Below are positions 17,328 through 22,206 of a DNA stretch of 25,918 nucleotides, piece after piece (positions within the stretch are counted from its first letter, which is position 1; each line of letters opens with the position of its first letter). Below the pieces are notes generated by a model. That model did no database searches and was not told the origin of the DNA. It saw only the letters and a program-made list of their open reading frames with translations. The translations under genes were made by a program, and so were the position numbers. Source of the stretch: a virus. Location of the stretch: the UHGV virus genome UHGV-0362220; one strand, written 5' to 3'.

Positions 17328-19265
17328 TCAGCCGCCGGACGCACTGCCGTAGTTCACTCCGGTGATCACCGCCACCGCCGCAGTACGGCGACGACGCCAG
17401 TTGATCCAGCGCTCCGCACGGATGGCCACGCTGCCTGTCTGGAACATGGAAACCAGCTCCACCGGGGACGGCGTGGTACTGTCGCCGGTCGGCTCAGACT
17501 GCATTTCCAGTGATGCCTCGCGGGACATATCCACTGCCACGCCGCCGTCATCCGCCAGATAAATATCCGGGGCATTCACCAGCACCAGCTGGTCACCCAC
17601 GTACTGGGAGACAATCACCGGCAGCCCCTGGAAGGAGCCACCCAGCAGGGTCATGTCCGGGTATTCCTTCTGACCCAGCGCATTTTTACGCATGGACAGT
17701 GCCAGGGCATTGGTGCTGGACATCAGCCAGACCGCACCGGTGGGCTGCAGGTTTGCTGCCACAAACTGTCCAAACGCAGCCTCTGCATCCGCATCCGGGT
17801 TACCGGTTGATGCCGTGCCCTTCACATCATGGGTGATGGACGCCGGGGAGACATCTGCCACTGCGGCTTTTTTCGGGTCCACAAAGTCTGTATCCAGACG
17901 CGCCACCACCGCTTCCGCCAGCGCATTACGGACCAGTGCATCAGCAGCCGGACTGGAAAAACGGATCAATTCTTCCGTCAGTACCGCAATGGCCGACACC
18001 TTCGCATGACTGAAGGTGATGGATTCAAAATCAAACTTCGTCAGGGGTTTTGCCTTACCCTCACCCACCCAGCCGGCAGCACCGCCGGACACCTGGGCGT
18101 GCACACGGATATTGAATGGCACCTGACGAAGTGCAGGGATCCCGCCCTGACCAAATCGCCCGATAATGGTCTGCGGACGCAGGTAATCAATAAAGTCCTG
18201 TGCGTATTCCTGATATTCAGACAGGCTGCCTGCCCACTGCGGATCCGTGGTGGTCCCCGCGCCCACTGCCGATTTCAGGACATGATGCAGACGACTGTCA
18301 TCCGGATACTGACGACGGGCCACTTCCAGGGCTTCAGATCGGACGCCTTTAGCCGCAGCCAGCGATTTGGCAAAGCGGGCGAAGCCAATCCCCTTATCCA
18401 GTTTCTGCTCCACACGGATCACCGGCGCAGAAGCCACCGCGGCCACATTCCCGTTACCGGCCTGTTTCACCGGCTGCGCCGTGGCGGCCTTACCGGCTTC
18501 CAGTTCACGCAGGCGCTTCAGGTGCGCATCCACCTGACGGATTTCCGCTGCGGTGTTGTCGTAATGCTCTTCCTCCTCCACATCCAGCGTGCGCCCTTCC
18601 TCTGCGGCTTTGGTCATGACCTCCTCAAGGGAGGCTGCCAGCGCTGCACGCTTGTTTTCAAAACTTTTAATCTGTTCGCCAATATTCATTATGGTCTTTT
18701 CCTTATGAAAAACGGTTGTTGACTGTGCCGCAGCGCCGGCAGAAGATGCGATTTTCACCACCGGTTTCCGGTTGCCGGACGCGGCAGAAAACGGGCGGTC
18801 GTAAGATTTAATGGTCCGGATGGTGCATTCCGCATTCGCGGGCACGGTGACGGCAGACACCTCCATCAGTTCCCAGCGCAGAAAATGCAGTCCGCCTCCG
18901 TCCAGAAAGGTGTATTCATGGGGACGGAAGCCCACGGACAGCCCCCTGACCAGCCCGGTCTTAATGGCCGCCCAGACCTCATCCAGCCGGGCAGCCAGTT
19001 GCGACGGCATATCCGGTACGGGCTTCACCAGTGTTGCCGTGATTTCCAGCCCTTCGCTGACCCGGCGCACCGTACACTGCCCCACCGGGCGGGAATGGTC
19101 ATGCTGCCAGAGAAACGGGATCGCACTGCCAAACTCCGCGCCCTCCGGCTCCAGGATGTCACCATCCCGATCCGGAGAAGGCGTTGACGCAATCCCGGTG
19201 ATCACCCGTTCATCCTCACTGAAGGATTTCACCGTCAGCAGGGAACAGGCCCGTTTAAGAGTCAC
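17328..19265 (-). CDS. prohead protease (S78 family) fused in frame to an HK97-type major capsid protein
   Basis: N-terminus has S78 protease motifs (QHDHSRPVGQ, GLSVGF, ELMEVSAVTVPAN); then a coiled-coil segment and a capsid-like C-terminal half. GTG start at 19265 with AGGAGG 5 nt upstream. An internal in-frame ATG (MNIGEQIKSFENKRAA...) has AAGGAAAAG upstream. Confidence 0.8.
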   Translation of the reverse strand: MTLKRACSLLTVKSFSEDERVITGIASTPSPDRDGDILEPEGAEFGSAIPFLWQHDHSRPVGQCTVRRVSEGLEITATLVKPVPDMPSQLAARLDEVWAAIKTGLVRGLSVGFRPHEYTFLDGGGLHFLRWELMEVSAVTVPANAECTIRTIKSYDRPFSAASGNRKPVVKIASSAGAAAQSTTVFHKEKTIMNIGEQIKSFENKRAALAASLEEVMTKAAEEGRTLDVEEEEHYDNTAAEIRQVDAHLKRLRELEAGKAATAQPVKQAGNGNVAAVASAPVIRVEQKLDKGIGFARFAKSLAAAKGVRSEALEVARRQYPDDSRLHHVLKSAVGAGTTTDPQWAGSLSEYQEYAQDFIDYLRPQTIIGRFGQGGIPALRQVPFNIRVHAQVSGGAAGWVGEGKAKPLTKFDFESITFSHAKVSAIAVLTEELIRFSSPAADALVRNALAEAVVARLDTDFVDPKKAAVADVSPASITHDVKGTASTGNPDADAEAAFGQFVAANLQPTGAVWLMSSTNALALSMRKNALGQKEYPDMTLLGGSFQGLPVIVSQYVGDQLVLVNAPDIYLADDGGVAVDMSREASLEMQSEPTGDSTTPSPVELVSMFQTGSVAIRAERWINWRRRRTAAVAVITGVNYGSASGG

Positions 19266-19328: not shown

Positions 19329-20990
19329 TTATATGAAAAAAACCGCATATTCTTTCTTTTTCGGTTCCGGGTTAAGGGACATCAGGGAGACCGCATTGAA
19401 CAGCGCCATCAGCGGGTCAATTTTTCCCCGTCCACTGGCCTGTTTGGTGATAAGAATGGCGTTACCTTTAGGCTCCACCCGGGCATTGCCGACACACCAG
19501 GCCATCAGGGGCTGGTCACCATGCACCAGCACCCCTTCAGCCAGTTTGCGCTCGGTGGTTTTAATGGCCCCGCCCAGTTTCCAGCCCTGGCTTATCCCCA
19601 CCACAATTCCGTCGGGGATCCCGGCTTCCGCCAGTGAATCCAGAATCTGCCCCACCCCTGACGGGTCAATACCGATATGGTCCAGTAACTCAGCCTCATG
19701 AATGCGACGCACATATTCCGCCACTTCCGCCGTGTCATCCCCGACACGCCGGACAATGGTCATATCTCCACAGGCAACAAGATCCTGAAACCGGGACGCC
19801 TCGCTCTTCCGTCGGACCACCGCGGTTTCATGCGCCCAGGCATGGCCCCAGCCCAGCCATTCGCGGGTCTCCCGGTCACGCCCAATCACATACATCCCCA
19901 GCAGATCATCCAGCCCTCCGCCGTCAATCCCCACCGTCACCACATCAGCACGACGCAGGATATCGTCCAGGCTGATACAACGGCCCTGCTCTTCCCAGAA
20001 ATCAGCCCCCGCCCAGCGGTCAGAGCGCAGGGCAAGACCAATTTCCACATTGGCGTGTTTTGACATGAACCCCCGGAATGTCTCTTCACCGGCTTCCCGG
20101 GCTTTACGGTACTCCCGGTACAGAAAGGCCTCATCCACTGAATAGCCGAGATTCGGATTGACCATGGCGAGGTTTTCCATCAGCAGGTTAGTCCCGCTTT
20201 CCACCATTTCAGGAGGGTGTTCAAATATCACCGGCAGAAAGTGCGGATCATGAATTTTGCCGTCGCGCACATCCCGGGCGTACTGCAGTTTCTGTCTGAA
20301 CACCCCGGCGGGCGGTTCATTCGACTGGGTGGTCGTATACACCACAAACCCTTCCGGGCGGGAGGCAAGGCCGCCTATGGCTTCACGTAACATGTCCTCC
20401 GCCTTGCACTGCTTGCCAAACAGCCACAACTCATCAATCAGCGTACCCACGGACTTGATACCGGACACCGTATTCGGATCGGCTGCCACCACCTTCAGGG
20501 TGGTGTCCGTCACTCGGTGGGTGATGGTCCGGATATGGGTCTGTACCTGGCAGAGGTCATCCAGATCATCGTCACGTCGTACCATATCCCGGGCAGGGTT
20601 GAAGGCGTTGGCCGCCACCTCCACAGTCGGGGCCAGAATCGTGTAACCCGCCGCCTGCCGCCAGTTCAGTAACAGTGCAGTCATCATGATCCCCGCGGCC
20701 AGCGTGGACTTCGAGTTTTTCTTGGGGATAAGGATAAAAACTTCCTTGATATGGCGTACACCGGTCTGCGCATCGTAGGAGCCAAACAGGGCCGCCACCA
20801 GGTCAAACACCCACGGTGCACAGGACTCCCCGAACGTAGGGCTACCAGGTGCATCCACAATCCGCAGTTGTTTAAAAATCGCCAGGGCATGTGCGGCCTC
20901 GTCCGGATAAATCGGATCCGGAATAATCGACAGCCCCTTTTTCAGGCGCTCTGCCCAGTCCGGGCAGGCTGTGCTCCATACAGGTATCAT
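19329..20990 (-). CDS. terL: terminase large subunit
   Basis: Walker A-like ILIPKKNSKST, Walker B-like LIDELWLF, and a C-terminal acidic nuclease-type region (VVTVGIDGGGLDDLLGMYVIG); start overlaps the terS stop as ATGA. Confidence 0.9.
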   Translation of the reverse strand: MIPVWSTACPDWAERLKKGLSIIPDPIYPDEAAHALAIFKQLRIVDAPGSPTFGESCAPWVFDLVAALFGSYDAQTGVRHIKEVFILIPKKNSKSTLAAGIMMTALLLNWRQAAGYTILAPTVEVAANAFNPARDMVRRDDDLDDLCQVQTHIRTITHRVTDTTLKVVAADPNTVSGIKSVGTLIDELWLFGKQCKAEDMLREAIGGLASRPEGFVVYTTTQSNEPPAGVFRQKLQYARDVRDGKIHDPHFLPVIFEHPPEMVESGTNLLMENLAMVNPNLGYSVDEAFLYREYRKAREAGEETFRGFMSKHANVEIGLALRSDRWAGADFWEEQGRCISLDDILRRADVVTVGIDGGGLDDLLGMYVIGRDRETREWLGWGHAWAHETAVVRRKSEASRFQDLVACGDMTIVRRVGDDTAEVAEYVRRIHEAELLDHIGIDPSGVGQILDSLAEAGIPDGIVVGISQGWKLGGAIKTTERKLAEGVLVHGDQPLMAWCVGNARVEPKGNAILITKQASGRGKIDPLMALFNAVSLMSLNPEPKKKEYAVFFI

Positions 20991-21550
20991 CCGTTGCCCT
21001 CATTATCGTTATTCACCACCAGTCGGGGGGGCGGTGGCACCGCAAAACGGTTAGCCGCTTTTTTCGCGGCATCACCTTTTGCCGATTTTTTCCCGGTATC
21101 CCCTTTTTTATGGTGCGTGAACTGCGCCAGACGCCAGGCCGCATCCAGTGCCAGTTTCGGATCAATGCAGAGGTTTTCCACCAGGATCCGCCCCATGGCT
21201 TTCACCGGATCGGGAAGACCATCCTCCATATATTCAATACCAGGAGACATCACCGCGGACGGTGGCATCTCCAGATTGTTTTCGTCCGGCTGTGGTATTG
21301 CAGCCGCCTCACGGCGACGGGGTTTATCCTCCTGCTCTGATTTTTTCTGCCGGTAAACAGGAACCTCATCCACCTCCACCGTCTCGCATTGTTTACGGGC
21401 TATAAACGCAAGCACCTCAGGATCTTTTGCCAGCTGCGAGCCTTTAACCCTGGCGGTCTTCGCCGAATAACCGGCGGCAATGGCTGACGCTGTTTTGTTT
21501 TTCCCGGACATGAGCGCCAGCGCAAATTTTCGTTTTTGCGTTGTCAGCAC
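20987..21550 (-). CDS. terS: terminase small subunit (N-terminal helix-turn-helix type)
   Basis: N-terminal KRKFALALMSGKNKTASAIAAGYSAKTARVKGSQL matches the small-terminase HTH pattern; coupled to terL. GTG start at 21550 is uncertain. Confidence 0.8.
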   Translation of the reverse strand: MLTTQKRKFALALMSGKNKTASAIAAGYSAKTARVKGSQLAKDPEVLAFIARKQCETVEVDEVPVYRQKKSEQEDKPRRREAAAIPQPDENNLEMPPSAVMSPGIEYMEDGLPDPVKAMGRILVENLCIDPKLALDAAWRLAQFTHHKKGDTGKKSAKGDAAKKAANRFAVPPPPRLVVNNDNEGNG

Positions 21551-21626
21551 AGCCTCCTCCCGGGTCCAGAACGCACTCAGCCGGGTATGGTTCAGCCCAT
21601 TTTTCCCGGCGTCTCATGCCGCAAAT

Positions 21627-21746
21627 GTTAACTGCTGCCTGGTTAACATTTGCTGAAAAAGCCTGTTAACATTTTTTCCGCACAACAAACTGAATAATAA
21701 AGATAAAAACCGCAAAAATGCCCGGGCAGCCAGTTAACATGTTAAC
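21627..21746. promoter_or_regulatory. cluster of five GTTAAC palindromes upstream of terS; candidate terminase recognition (cos/pac-proximal) region
   Basis: GTTAAC at 21627, 21642, 21665, 21733 and 21741, two of them in the direct repeat GTTAACATTT, within the 290-bp HNH-terS intergenic region. Confidence 0.4.
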
Positions 21747-21840
21747 TGCCCTGAAACGGGAATTTTTTCTCTGCGTGAGAGGGGGCGCGGTGTCCAAAGC
21801 GATCGTTTTTTACGCCGGATGATACCCCCCCCGGGTTGGG

Positions 21841-22206
21841 TTACAGTCCGATGATGTCGTCCTCTCTGCCACTACCTCCGGACACCTCCGGCAGCGTCGG
21901 GTCCGGCATACCACTCGCCGCTTCACGAGCAGACTTTTGTCGATGGCATTCGGCACAGAGCGTCCAAAGATTCGTCTCCTCATTACCACCACCGAACTGA
22001 AGTGCAATTCGGTGATCGAGTTCACTGTCACAGAGGTCAACCACACGACCACAGATACAGCACTGCCCGGCGTCCCTCAGCCAGATATGACGCTTGAGGG
22101 AAACACGTGCACTGCCACTGACACGACGCTGCTCCCCCTTCAGAATATTCACCCGTCGGGTATTCAGTGTTTTGATTCTGCTCTGGAGTGTACGAAGCTC
22201 AGCCAT
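21841..22206 (-). CDS. HNH homing-type endonuclease (terminase-associated)
   Basis: Classic HNH motif: CCICGR...DHRIALQFGG...NLWTLCAECHRQK. Lies immediately upstream of the terminase genes. Confidence 0.9.
   Translation of the reverse strand: MAELRTLQSRIKTLNTRRVNILKGEQRRVSGSARVSLKRHIWLRDAGQCCICGRVVDLCDSELDHRIALQFGGGNEETNLWTLCAECHRQKSAREAASGMPDPTLPEVSGGSGREDDIIGL

What the first reader, a model, noticed from the sequence alone, without database searches (positions are those of the whole stretch)
21551..21840. Five GTTAAC palindromes between the HNH endonuclease gene and terS; candidate terminase recognition site
The only sizeable non-coding stretch in the packaging module holds five copies of GTTAAC in 120 bp, including a direct repeat GTTAACATTT and an abutting pair (21733..21746). 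Small terminase subunits with an N-terminal HTH bind repeated sites near cos/pac, and HNH endonucleases next to terminase genes are known to assist cos cleavage in HK97-like phages. The actual cleavage site cannot be read from sequence alone.
Basis: partly seen in the sequence, partly recalled or inferred. Interest (0 to 1): 0.45.

Follow-up and report, generated by a model that had tools for sequence, protein, structure and literature searches.

The report
Phage cos site with terminase-binding repeats
This 290-bp gap is the DNA-packaging start site (cos) of a very common E. coli prophage: a cut site placed by homology, followed by five copies of a short motif that the small terminase most likely binds, which is a useful but expected kind of element.

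Summary
Five GTTAAC lie at 21627, 21642, 21665, 21733 and 21741, inside the 290-bp HNH-terS spacer; only four others occur in the remaining 25.6 kb. All genes here are on the minus strand.

Two relatives have mapped virion ends: Lys8385Vzw (TerL 97% identical) and Acinetobacter phage fEg-Aba01. Both place a 10-nt 3' cohesive end in the same conserved core. In the window this is CGCGCCCCCT, at 21789..21780.

The five sites lie +34 to +153 downstream of that cut, on the side carrying terS. In lambda and HK97 this is the side packaged first. They never vary in 48 distinct E. coli versions, whereas 104 of 199 other spacer positions do. They also survive in PICI-like satellite islands that have no terS beside them, while a third of the surrounding bases changed.

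Relatives in other genera keep GTTAAC at about the same distance from the cut, usually overlapping the terS start codon (ATG TTA AC). TerS has the N-terminal small-terminase helix-turn-helix domain.

Best reading: a cosB-like array of TerS sites. This is a new member of a known kind, of moderate interest.

The parts
21841..22206 (-). HNH endonuclease gene (121 aa), the last gene before cos in the direction of transcription
   Evidence: ORF list. Pfam PF01844, E=2.7e-7. 69% identical to the HNH protein of Salmonella phage FSL SP-016 in the same position.
21825..21832 (-). G8 run (C8 on the + strand), 46-53 nt upstream of the predicted cut. Function unknown; possibly a cosQ-like or nuclease-positioning element.
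   Evidence: A run of at least 6-7 G at this place is kept in type A and type B phages, in the satellites and in Acinetobacter.
21752..21795 (-). Conserved cos core GGACAC-CGCGCCCCCT-CTCACGCAGAGAAAAAATTCCCGTTTCA, which includes the cut site and an A6 tract (21763-21768)
   Evidence: Nearly invariant in 48 type B and 57 type A sequences, including bases outside the search pattern. Identical in the satellites.
21780..21789 (-). Predicted 10-nt 3' cohesive end CGCGCCCCCT (cosN). The mature left end would start at 21779 and run toward terS.
   Evidence: Placed by homology to mapped ends of Lys8385Vzw (CGCCCCCCCT; PMC7946995) and fEg-Aba01 (CGCCCCCCAT; PMC7354433). Not measured for this prophage.
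21731..21748 (-). Palindrome P1, CAGTTAACA|TGTTAACTG, holding sites R1 (21741-21746) and R2 (21733-21738); +32..+49 from the left end. It is homologous to the terS start region of relatives.
   Evidence: It aligns with GTAAAC-ATGTTAAC (terS start) of SP-016 and about 57 other sequences. Invariant.
21678..21730 (-). T-rich spacer with T5, T5 and T3 tracts between P1 and R3; possibly bendable DNA
   Evidence: Sequence. T-richness and length are kept within 1 nt in the satellites although about 40% of bases differ. No IHF consensus above chance.
21665..21677 (-). Site R3, AAAAAATGTTAAC (GTTAAC at 21665-21670); +110..+115
   Evidence: Invariant in 48 type B sequences. One loss seen (GTTACC) in satellite L153, which also shows other small deletions.
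21621..21653 (-). Inverted pair P2, GCAAATGTTAAC-N9-GTTAACATTTGC, holding R4 (21642-21647) and R5 (21627-21632); +127..+159. Similarity to the satellites ends just after it.
   Evidence: I2: 12-nt arms, 100% complementary.
21561..21620 (-). Variable linker between the array and the terS ribosome-binding site; not part of the conserved signal
   Evidence: Most positions vary among type B sequences. There is no similarity to the satellites here.
20987..21560 (-). Shine-Dalgarno GGAGGAGG (21553-21560) and terS (GTG at 21550; 187 aa). The N-terminal ~56 aa form the small-terminase HTH DNA-binding domain. The start GTG CTG ACA is the degenerate homologue of ATG TTA ACA.
   Evidence: PF03592, E=1.3e-8, residues 2-57. 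In a profile search of the PDB, the best five hits are all small-terminase chains, matched over the N-terminal part of the query (E 0.006-0.04). Alignment with SP-016 TerS.
19329..20990 (-). terL (553 aa), the large terminase with ATPase and nuclease domains
   Evidence: PF03354 and PF20441. 97% identical to Lys8385Vzw TerL and 83% to SP-016 TerL.

Best explanation
The HNH-terS spacer is the cos region of an HK97-style, HNH-dependent cos phage. Read on the minus strand, in the direction of transcription, it contains:

- a G8 run;
- a conserved core in which terminase, with the HNH protein, makes staggered nicks that leave the 10-nt 3' overhang CGCGCCCCCT (21789..21780);
- an A6 tract;
- five copies of (A)AATGTTAAC at +34 to +153, arranged as an abutting palindrome, a T-rich spacer, a single site and an inverted pair.

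The five sites most likely act as a cosB-like array. Several N-terminal helix-turn-helix domains of the oligomeric TerS would bind them. This would anchor TerL and HNH on the adjacent core for cutting, and hold the terS-proximal end for insertion into the prohead.

Shown here: the existence, arrangement and strict conservation of the sites; their position relative to cut sites mapped in two relatives; the TerS domain type; and their retention in satellites without terS. Inferred: that TerS is the binder, the stoichiometry and bending, the role of HNH, and that packaging runs from this end (by analogy with HK97 and lambda, whose genomes start at terS).
For: 1. Cut site. Lys8385Vzw (TerL 97.3% identical) is a PhageTerm-mapped cos phage with 3' end CGCCCCCCCT (PMC7946995). 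Its record ends in that decamer and begins CTCACGCAGAGAAAAAATTCCCGTTTCAGGGCAGTTAACATGTTAAC, which is collinear with window 21779 downward. fEg-Aba01 has a 10-nt 3' end, CGCCCCCCAT, at the same place in the core, confirmed by a heat/cool restriction test (PMC7354433).

2. Constraint. Among 48 distinct long-type sequences retrieved with the cos core only, 0 of 30 GTTAAC positions vary, against 104 of 199 other positions between the cut and terS (Fisher p=2e-9). No long-type sequence has fewer than five sites.

3. Independence from terS. PICI-like islands beside clpS, yejO or phoQ carry the core plus all five sites at their end, with no terS downstream. In the 128 bp from P1 to P2, 0-1 of 30 motif bases differ from the window, against 32-35 of 98 other bases (p about 3e-5 to 3e-4). 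Similarity stops right after the fifth site.

4. Deep conservation of the core motif at the same distance from the cut. About 57 sequences from other Enterobacterales have G(T/A)(A/T)AAC-(A/G)T-GTTAAC at about +38..+51, with the terS start codon inside it. Where the terS start is displaced (Proteus L023, Pantoea L024, and the window), GTTAAC stays in place upstream and the Leu codon drifts from TTA to CTA or CTG.

5. Independent expansions. The Proteus terS holds about 15 in-frame 12-bp units, AAAGTTAAYnCT.

6. Hint of co-variation. Acinetobacter-type TerS differs from the window over the stretch that aligns with the SF6 DNA-binding domain (EKTASAAGARL against AKTARVKGSQL). It goes with 2-3 AAGTTAAA repeats at the same position.

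7. TerS domain. The N-terminus matches the small-terminase HTH domain.
Against: No binding, footprint or packaging assay exists for this family, so TerS as the binder is inferred.

The cut site is transferred by homology. The window's overhang differs by one base from each mapped relative, and this prophage's virion DNA has not been examined.

Site spacing is irregular (8, 68, 23 and 15 bp centre to centre) and fits no simple wrapping model.

Most relatives manage with a single palindrome, so four of the five sites may be accessory.

In relatives the motif coincides with codons (Met-Leu-Thr, Val-Asn), so part of its conservation there is protein-level.

HK97 TerS, the best-studied HNH-dependent case, recognises one 15-bp site through a C-terminal arginine clamp and not through an HTH (PMC11331095). 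That precedent does not transfer directly.
Confidence: 0.7

Rival explanations
1. The array is a genuine cis-acting packaging signal, but it is read by something other than the TerS HTH. Candidates are TerL, the HNH protein, a host architectural protein, or an accessory phage or satellite protein.
For: Conservation and retention in the satellites show only that the sites matter in cis, not who binds them. HK97 TerS does not use an HTH (PMC11331095). A T-rich spacer sits between the sites.
Against: The TerS N-terminal domain is the most conserved part of the protein across genera. It is of the DNA-binding small-terminase type. The motif changes to GTTAAA where TerS differs over the stretch aligned with the SF6 DNA-binding domain. 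No IHF consensus was found above chance.
Confidence: 0.13
2. The repeats are evolutionary debris: reiterated copies of the terS 5' end (ATG TTA AC = Met-Leu-Thr) left by duplications that pushed the start codon downstream. On this view they have no present function.
For: P1 is homologous to the terS start of relatives. The window has about 190 extra bp between it and the present start GTGCTGACA. Each copy contains ATG.
Against: Debris should decay like its surroundings. Instead, 0 of 30 motif positions vary against 104 of 199 others. The satellites keep all five while a third of neighbouring bases changed. Nothing beyond the 8-10-nt motif resembles terS.
Confidence: 0.05
3. The sites are operators or translational elements that control terS and late-gene expression. 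This could involve small upstream ORFs starting at each ATGTTAAC, or a repressor-binding palindrome over the start codon.
For: In most relatives the palindrome overlaps the terS start codon and lies just after its Shine-Dalgarno sequence. In the window each ATGTTAAC opens a mini-ORF; the first encodes 24 aa, MLTGCPGIFAVFIFIIQFVVRKKC.
Against: The satellites keep the array with no gene downstream. The mini-ORFs are not conserved: there is a stop after 4 codons in the satellites and after 14 in L074. There is no excess of promoter-like or terminator-like sites and no Rfam match. A secondary autoregulatory role in relatives is not excluded.
Confidence: 0.05
4. The cluster is a chance or restriction-related feature: HpaI-type GTTAAC sites with no role in packaging.
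For: GTTAAC is a known restriction site. Nine copies in the whole window is only mildly above expectation (3 of 100 shuffles reach 9).
Against: The clustering is not reproduced in 5000 simulations. The flanks are also conserved (AAATGTTAAC). The position relative to the cut is kept across genera.
Confidence: 0.01

Closest known systems
Phage lambda cos (cosQ-cosN-cosB, with R3-I1-R2-R1 bound by the gpNu1 winged HTH)
   Same: Repeated short elements lie between the nicking site and the small-terminase gene, on the end that carries terS. Some are in inverted orientation and they are separated by an A/T-rich stretch. The small terminase has an N-terminal HTH. Satellites copy the site (PMC6739421).
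   Different: TerS belongs to an unrelated family (PF03592, not PF07471 Nu1). The overhang is 10 nt and 3', against lambda's 12-nt 5' overhang (the latter from my own knowledge). An HNH partner gene is present. No IHF site was found. The motif is a 6-bp palindrome core, not a 16-bp R element. The satellites found here keep the phage's array, whereas EcCICFT073 replaces lambda cosB.
HK97 cos with gp74 HNH and gp1 TerS
   Same: The gene order is HNH - cos - terS - terL. The 3' overhang is 10 nt. An A-tract lies shortly downstream of the cut (+12..+17 here; the HK97 TerS site is at +15..+29) (PMC11331095).
   Different: HK97 TerS binds a single 15-bp site through a C-terminal arginine clamp. Here TerS has a different N-terminal HTH domain and there are five repeats. 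By inspection, the first 120 nt of the HK97 left end show no evident resemblance to this cos.
Mapped cos ends of Escherichia phage Lys8385Vzw and Acinetobacter phage fEg-Aba01
   Same: They share the conserved core GGACAC|CGCnCCCCnT|CnCACGCA-A6-8-TTCCC, and the mapped 10-nt 3' end is at the homologous place. Lys8385Vzw has the same five GTTAAC.
   Different: Those papers report only the overhang. Neither mentions the downstream repeats. fEg-Aba01 has three AAGTTAAA instead of GTTAAC.
SPP1/SF6 G1P small terminase and its pac site
   Same: The TerS N-terminal DNA-binding domain is of the same Pfam family. Repeated short boxes near the cleavage site are the accepted recognition mode for that family; this last point is from my own knowledge.
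   Different: Those phages package by the headful mechanism from pac. This family makes defined cohesive ends and carries an HNH gene.
Satellites that carry their helper's cos (P4 with P2; SaPIbov5 with HNH-dependent cos phages)
   Same: E. coli PICI-like islands carry a diverged copy of this cos core plus the array, without their own matching terS.
   Different: Mobilisation of these islands by this phage family has not been shown. Several of them also hold two lambda-type cosN sequences.

Membership tests
HK97-style HNH-dependent cos packaging module | Gene order HNH endonuclease - non-coding cos - terS - terL, all on one strand | tested here: met
   ORFs and Pfam domains. The same order is found in SP-016, BP-4795 and 20 genome loci.
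HK97-style HNH-dependent cos packaging module | Defined cohesive ends with a 10-nt 3' overhang in the HNH-terS spacer | tested here: inconclusive
   Met in two relatives with mapped ends at the homologous position (PMC7946995, PMC7354433). Not measurable for this prophage from sequence.
HK97-style HNH-dependent cos packaging module | HNH protein required for, or stimulating, cos cleavage | not testable with these tools
   Only the presence and position of an HNH-domain gene is shown. The role is inferred from HK97 gp74 (as cited in PMC11331095).
HK97-style HNH-dependent cos packaging module | TerS of the HK97 gp1 type, with a single site read by a C-terminal arginine clamp | tested here: not met
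   The window TerS matches only PF03592 (Terminase_2), over its N-terminal 56 residues. The HK97 mode of DNA recognition, a C-terminal arginine clamp on one 15-bp site, is described in PMC11331095; no direct sequence comparison with HK97 gp1 was run.
Lambda-type cosB | Several mutually similar sequence elements between the nick site and the small-terminase gene | tested here: met
   Five (A)AATGTTAAC at +34..+153, and terS at +230.
Lambda-type cosB | Elements bound by the N-terminal HTH of the small terminase | not testable with these tools
   The HTH domain is present. Binding is inferred from conservation and from the motif change seen with the TerS difference.
Lambda-type cosB | IHF site (I1) between R elements | tested here: not met
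   The best matches to WATCAANNNNTTR have 2 mismatches, which is the chance rate (1.2 expected per 290 bp).
Lambda-type cosB | Small terminase of the Nu1 family (PF07471) | tested here: not met
   The window TerS matches PF03592 only.
SPP1/SF6-type small terminase (PF03592) | N-terminal HTH DNA-binding domain of the family | tested here: met
   PF03592, E=1.3e-8, over residues 2-57. In the profile-versus-PDB search the top five hits are small-terminase chains 21di, 4zc3, 7joq, 2cmp and 3zqp.
SPP1/SF6-type small terminase (PF03592) | Headful (pac) packaging | tested here: not met
   Close relatives have defined cohesive ends.

The most novel reading that the evidence does not exclude
The five-site array is a lineage-specific expansion of an ancestral single TerS operator that in most relatives overlaps the terS start codon. 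On this reading the family repeatedly builds arrays of the same core, even inside the terS reading frame, as in Proteus.

The array plus cut site would also behave as a portable cassette captured by EcCICFT073-like PICIs. Some of these hold it next to two lambda-type cos sites. One island could then be packaged by two unrelated helper phage families without needing an Rpp-type specificity switch for this one.
Probability: 0.35. Interest if true: 0.6.

Novelty: new member of a known kind. Interest (0 to 1): 0.42.

Why it matters
This packaging module sits in about a quarter of complete E. coli genomes, with up to 7 copies per genome. It belongs to long-tailed Stx1, Stx2a and Stx2c phages and to ST131 prophages.

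Knowing the cut site and a defined candidate recognition motif would help in several ways:
- prophage ends and activity become easier to call from virion reads;
- a minimal cos cassette of about 180 bp (21620-21800) is available for transduction or phagemid tools;
- helper phages can be predicted for a set of PICI-like islands whose helpers are not known to me, a point I did not check in the literature;
- a TerS-DNA recognition problem is offered for an HTH-type TerS working with HNH-dependent cos cleavage, a combination for which my searches found no structural model.

The concept itself, repeated TerS sites beside the nick site, is textbook.

Tried and rejected
- IHF site in the T-rich spacer: only 2-mismatch matches, at the chance rate.
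- Structured RNA: no Rfam match at E<=1.
- Promoters and terminators: no excess. The one promoter-like hit on the + strand is made of the motif itself.
- Tandem repeat: none in the window.
- Small proteins from the ATGTTAAC mini-ORFs, including a hydrophobic 24-mer: the reading frames are not conserved.
- phi330 record ends as evidence for termini: the record was simply rotated to start at terL, and its paper has no end mapping.
- HK97 as a direct model: by inspection, the first 120 nt of its left end show no evident resemblance to this cos, and its TerS recognises DNA differently.
- Whether the clpS island's protease/capsid fusion was copied from this phage: no similarity.
- Literature search for GTTAAC with terminase and cos, and for the cos decamer: nothing beyond the PhageTerm sentence in PMC7946995.
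- Possible ascertainment bias in the invariance test: checked. Every long-type sequence retrieved with the cos core alone has exactly five sites.
- Structure prediction of TerS: not run, because the Pfam and PDB-profile results already settle the domain type and a model could not show DNA specificity.

Full report
**1. What is in the sequence**

All genes in this part of the window run on the minus strand. In transcription order they are:
- an HNH endonuclease gene (22206..21841; PF01844);
- a 290-bp gap (21840..21551);
- terS (21550..20987, GTG start preceded by GGAGGAGG; its first 56 residues match the Terminase_2 family, PF03592);
- terL (20990..19329; PF03354 plus PF20441);
- a prohead protease/capsid fusion gene.

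GTTAAC occurs nine times in the window.

The repeated unit is longer than six bases: (A)AATGTTAAC. Read on the minus strand, the copies form three groups:
- a perfect 18-bp palindrome, CAGTTAACA|TGTTAACTG (21748..21731; sites R1 and R2);
- a single site, AAAAAATGTTAAC (R3, 21677..21665);
- a perfect inverted pair, GCAAATGTTAAC-N9-GTTAACATTTGC (21653..21621; R4 and R5).

None of 5000 Markov simulations of the gap had more than two GTTAAC.

**2. Where the DNA is cut**

The gap is 95-100% identical in about 93 phage records, including long-tailed Stx1a, Stx2a and Stx2c phages, BP-4795, 2851, YYZ-2008 and 1717. It is also present in 1277 of 5426 complete E. coli genomes, with up to seven places per genome.

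Two relatives have mapped virion ends.

- Lys8385Vzw has a TerL 97.3% identical to the window's. [quoted passage not shown] The record ends ...GGACACCGCCCCCCCT and begins CTCACGCAGAGAAAAAATTCCCGTTTCAGGGCAGTTAACATGTTAACTGG.
- Acinetobacter phage fEg-Aba01 is much more distant (TerS N-terminus 51% identical). It has 10-nt 3' cohesive ends, CGCCCCCCAT, found by PhageTerm and confirmed by a heat/cool restriction test (PMC7354433). Its record ends ...GGACACCGCCCCCCAT and begins CGCACGCACAAAAAAAATTCCC....

Both cuts fall at the same place in one conserved core. In the window that core reads GGACAC|CGCGCCCCCT|CTCACGCAGAGAAAAAATTCCC.

By homology, the overhang is therefore 21789..21780, and the mature left end starts at 21779 and runs toward terS. 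This is an inference: the overhang differs by one base from each mapped relative, and no virion data exist for this prophage.

Relative to that end the features lie as follows:
- A6 tract at +12..+17;
- P1 at +32..+49;
- R3 at +110..+115;
- R4 at +133..+138;
- R5 at +148..+153;
- terS at +230.

The repeats thus lie downstream of the cut, on the terS side. This is where lambda has cosB.

**3. Are the repeats functional?**

I collected related DNA without using the repeat as bait. One set came from a TerS-based scan of species-representative genomes. The other came from a scan of IMG/VR with the cos core GGACACCGCNCCCCCTCTCA. Two layouts appear.

*The long layout.* This is the window's layout, found in the E. 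coli phage records and in IMG/VR contigs that match them. There are 48 distinct sequences over the 350-nt stretch analysed, and every one has exactly five GTTAAC. None of the 30 GTTAAC positions varies, while 104 of the 199 other positions between the cut and terS do (Fisher p=2e-9). A divergent subgroup (L074) has 16 changes in the 98 non-motif positions from P1 to P2, and none in the motifs.

*A natural experiment.* About 50 E. coli genomes carry a roughly 80%-identical copy of the region that is not next to HNH, terS or terL. It sits at the end of 10-kb islands inserted beside clpS, yejO (tRNA-Pro) or phoQ.

These islands encode an integrase, an HTH regulator, an Icd-like protein, a RepA-type helicase, SSB, capsid and decoration proteins, and sometimes a Nu1-like protein. 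They are therefore PICI-type satellites of the EcCICFT073 kind.

In the satellites the G-run, the core and all five sites are kept, while 32-35 of 98 other bases between P1 and P2 differ (p about 3e-5 to 3e-4). Similarity ends just after R5. Only one island (L153) has lost a site, and it also shows other small deletions.

The sites are therefore under selection as DNA, independently of terS coding, translation or transcription.

**4. Origin and family-wide pattern**

In about 57 distinct sequences from Salmonella phage FSL SP-016, Atlantibacter, Kluyvera, Kosakonia, Enterobacter, Citrobacter, Phytobacter, Erwinia, Pantoea, Rouxiella, Buttiauxella and Serratia, the spacer is only about 100 bp. 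There the terS start codon lies inside an imperfect palindrome, G(T/A)(A/T)AAC-(A/G)T-GTTAAC, at about +38 to +51. That is, terS starts ATG TTA ACA (Met-Leu-Thr).

The window's P1 is the homologue of that palindrome. About 190 bp carrying R3-R5 have been added after it. The present start, GTG CTG ACA, is the relaxed homologue of ATG TTA ACA.

Two other lineages with a displaced start still keep GTTAAC at the ancestral distance from the cut, upstream of the gene:
- Proteus L023, start ATGCTAACA;
- Pantoea L024, start ATGCTGACA.

So the motif is not merely a by-product of the codons.

The Proteus prophage additionally has about 15 in-frame 12-bp units, AAAGTTAAYnCT, inside the hypervariable linker of terS. 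Val is always GTT in these units.

Acinetobacter-type phages have a TerS that differs over the stretch aligning with the SF6 DNA-binding domain (EKTASAAGARL against AKTARVKGSQL). They carry two or three AAGTTAAA repeats at +30 to +65 instead. This is a small hint of protein-site co-variation.

**5. The protein**

The TerS N-terminal ~53 residues are by far the most conserved part of the protein across genera. They match Pfam Terminase_2. A profile of 16 homologues finds, as its five best PDB hits, only small-terminase chains, matched over the N-terminal part of the query: 21di, 4zc3, 7joq, 2cmp and 3zqp (E 0.006-0.04). From my own knowledge, 2cmp and 4zc3 are isolated HTH DNA-binding domains of SF6-type small terminases.

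**6. Most likely mechanism**

Steps that are shown:
- a conserved nick-site core with mapped homologues;
- five strictly conserved sites on the terS side;
- an HTH-type TerS;
- an HNH gene directly upstream.

Steps that are inferred:
- several HTH domains of one TerS oligomer bind the sites, perhaps with bending of the T-rich spacer;
- this positions TerL and HNH on the core to make staggered nicks leaving CGCGCCCCCT as a 3' overhang;
- the complex stays on the terS-proximal end, which enters the prohead first. This follows lambda and HK97, whose genomes begin at terS and, for HK97, end at the HNH gene (PMC11331095).

I put about 0.7 on TerS being the reader of the sites. I put higher confidence (about 0.9) on the narrower claim that the array is a cis-acting part of cos.

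**7. Rivals**

- Another protein reads the sites (0.13). This cannot be excluded without biochemistry.
- Duplication debris (0.05) and expression control or mini-ORFs (0.05). Both are contradicted by the invariance and by the satellites. The mini-ORFs are not conserved.
- Chance or restriction-site clustering (0.01).

No IHF site, Rfam family, promoter or terminator excess, or tandem repeat was found.

**8. Comparison with known systems, and novelty**

Functionally the array resembles lambda cosB. It is not a member of that system: the TerS is not Nu1-type, there is no IHF site, and the overhang is 10 nt and 3'.

The module belongs with HK97-style HNH-dependent cos phages by gene order and end type. 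Its TerS, however, is of the SPP1/SF6 HTH family and not the HK97 gp1 type, which reads a single site with an arginine clamp.

The literature I could search gives only the overhang for two relatives, and nothing on the repeats. I therefore rate this a new member of a known kind.

Interest is moderate (0.42). A specialist would expect TerS sites next to cos. The less expected points are:
- the operator over the terS start codon in relatives;
- the independent array expansions;
- the capture of the cassette by PICIs, some of which also carry two lambda-type cos sites.

Noticed in passing
L150, L151, L154/L155, L084 (E. coli islands at tRNA-Pro/yejO and phoQ); e.g. L150 1122-1133 and about 1860, plus the cos copy at about 2500-2790: EcCICFT073-like PICIs carry a diverged copy of this phage family's cos core plus all five GTTAAC sites. 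They also carry two lambda-type cosN sequences (GGGCGGCGACCT) in opposite orientations, giving three cos sites of two kinds within about 1.5 kb. This suggests one satellite can use two unrelated helper families.
   Followed up: partly
L028/L029 (E. coli Ec-042-T5-ESBL NZ_CP086532.1, 2992174-3002000, between clpS and cspD/yljB; also E. coli 042 and MS6198): A 9.5-kb satellite-like island has an integrase, an Icd-like protein, a RepA helicase and a ClpP-type protease/capsid fusion (PF00574+PF25209) unrelated to the window's fusion. Its only cos is a copy of this one, with no lambda-type cosN. About 50 of 5426 genomes carry this satellite version of the cos.
   Followed up: partly
L023 2663-2842 (Proteus mirabilis ATCC 29906 prophage terS): About 15 in-frame 12-bp units, AAAGTTAAYnCT (x-Val-Asn-x, with Val always GTT), fill the variable linker of terS. 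Twelve of the locus's 24 RTTAAY lie there. This looks like a binding-site array embedded in a coding sequence.
   Followed up: partly
L004 2595-2608 and about 57 other sequences (L007-L022, L025 and many of L030-L149): In most relatives the terS start codon lies inside the palindrome GTAAAC-ATGTTAAC, about 40 nt from the cut. The Leu codon is always TTA there. It becomes CTG or CTA in the three lineages where the start has moved away from the site, the window included (21547..21545).
   Followed up: yes
window 21825-21832: A G8 run 46-53 nt upstream of the predicted cut is conserved in phages of several genera and in the satellites. Its role is unknown; it may be cosQ-like.
   Followed up: no
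L156 746-2204 (PPompW_699, LC567826.1); corresponds to window ~21828: In PPompW prophages of O157, an IS110-family ISEc20 ends exactly in the G-run. HNH and the lysis genes are absent upstream, so the prophage is defective at its cos.
   Followed up: partly
L004 ~2823, L025 ~2720, and many short-layout loci at about +270 from the cut: Short-layout terS genes have another GT(A/T)AAC about 270 nt from the cut. It encodes the only conserved residues (Val-Asn) of an otherwise hypervariable linker, and may be a further DNA site. The window's terS lacks it.
   Followed up: no
L157 33-64 (fEg-Aba01); L067 and L085: Acinetobacter-type relatives have two or three AAGTTAAA direct repeats between the mapped left end and terS. 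Their TerS differs over the stretch that aligns with the SF6 DNA-binding domain.
   Followed up: partly
window 21740..21666 (minus strand): A 24-codon hydrophobic mini-ORF (MLTGCPGIFAVFIFIIQFVVRKKC) starts at R2 and stops in R3. It is not conserved in the satellites or in L074, so it is probably not a gene.
   Followed up: yes
window 17328-19265 (minus strand): The prohead protease and the major capsid protein are fused in one 645-aa ORF (PF04586 + PF05065).
   Followed up: no
window 21540-21860: The region is 100% identical in many ST131/O25b:H4 and other human isolates, and is present up to 7 times per genome in O157 and other STEC. Repeated identical cos regions may matter for assembly breaks and for recombination between prophages.
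   Followed up: no
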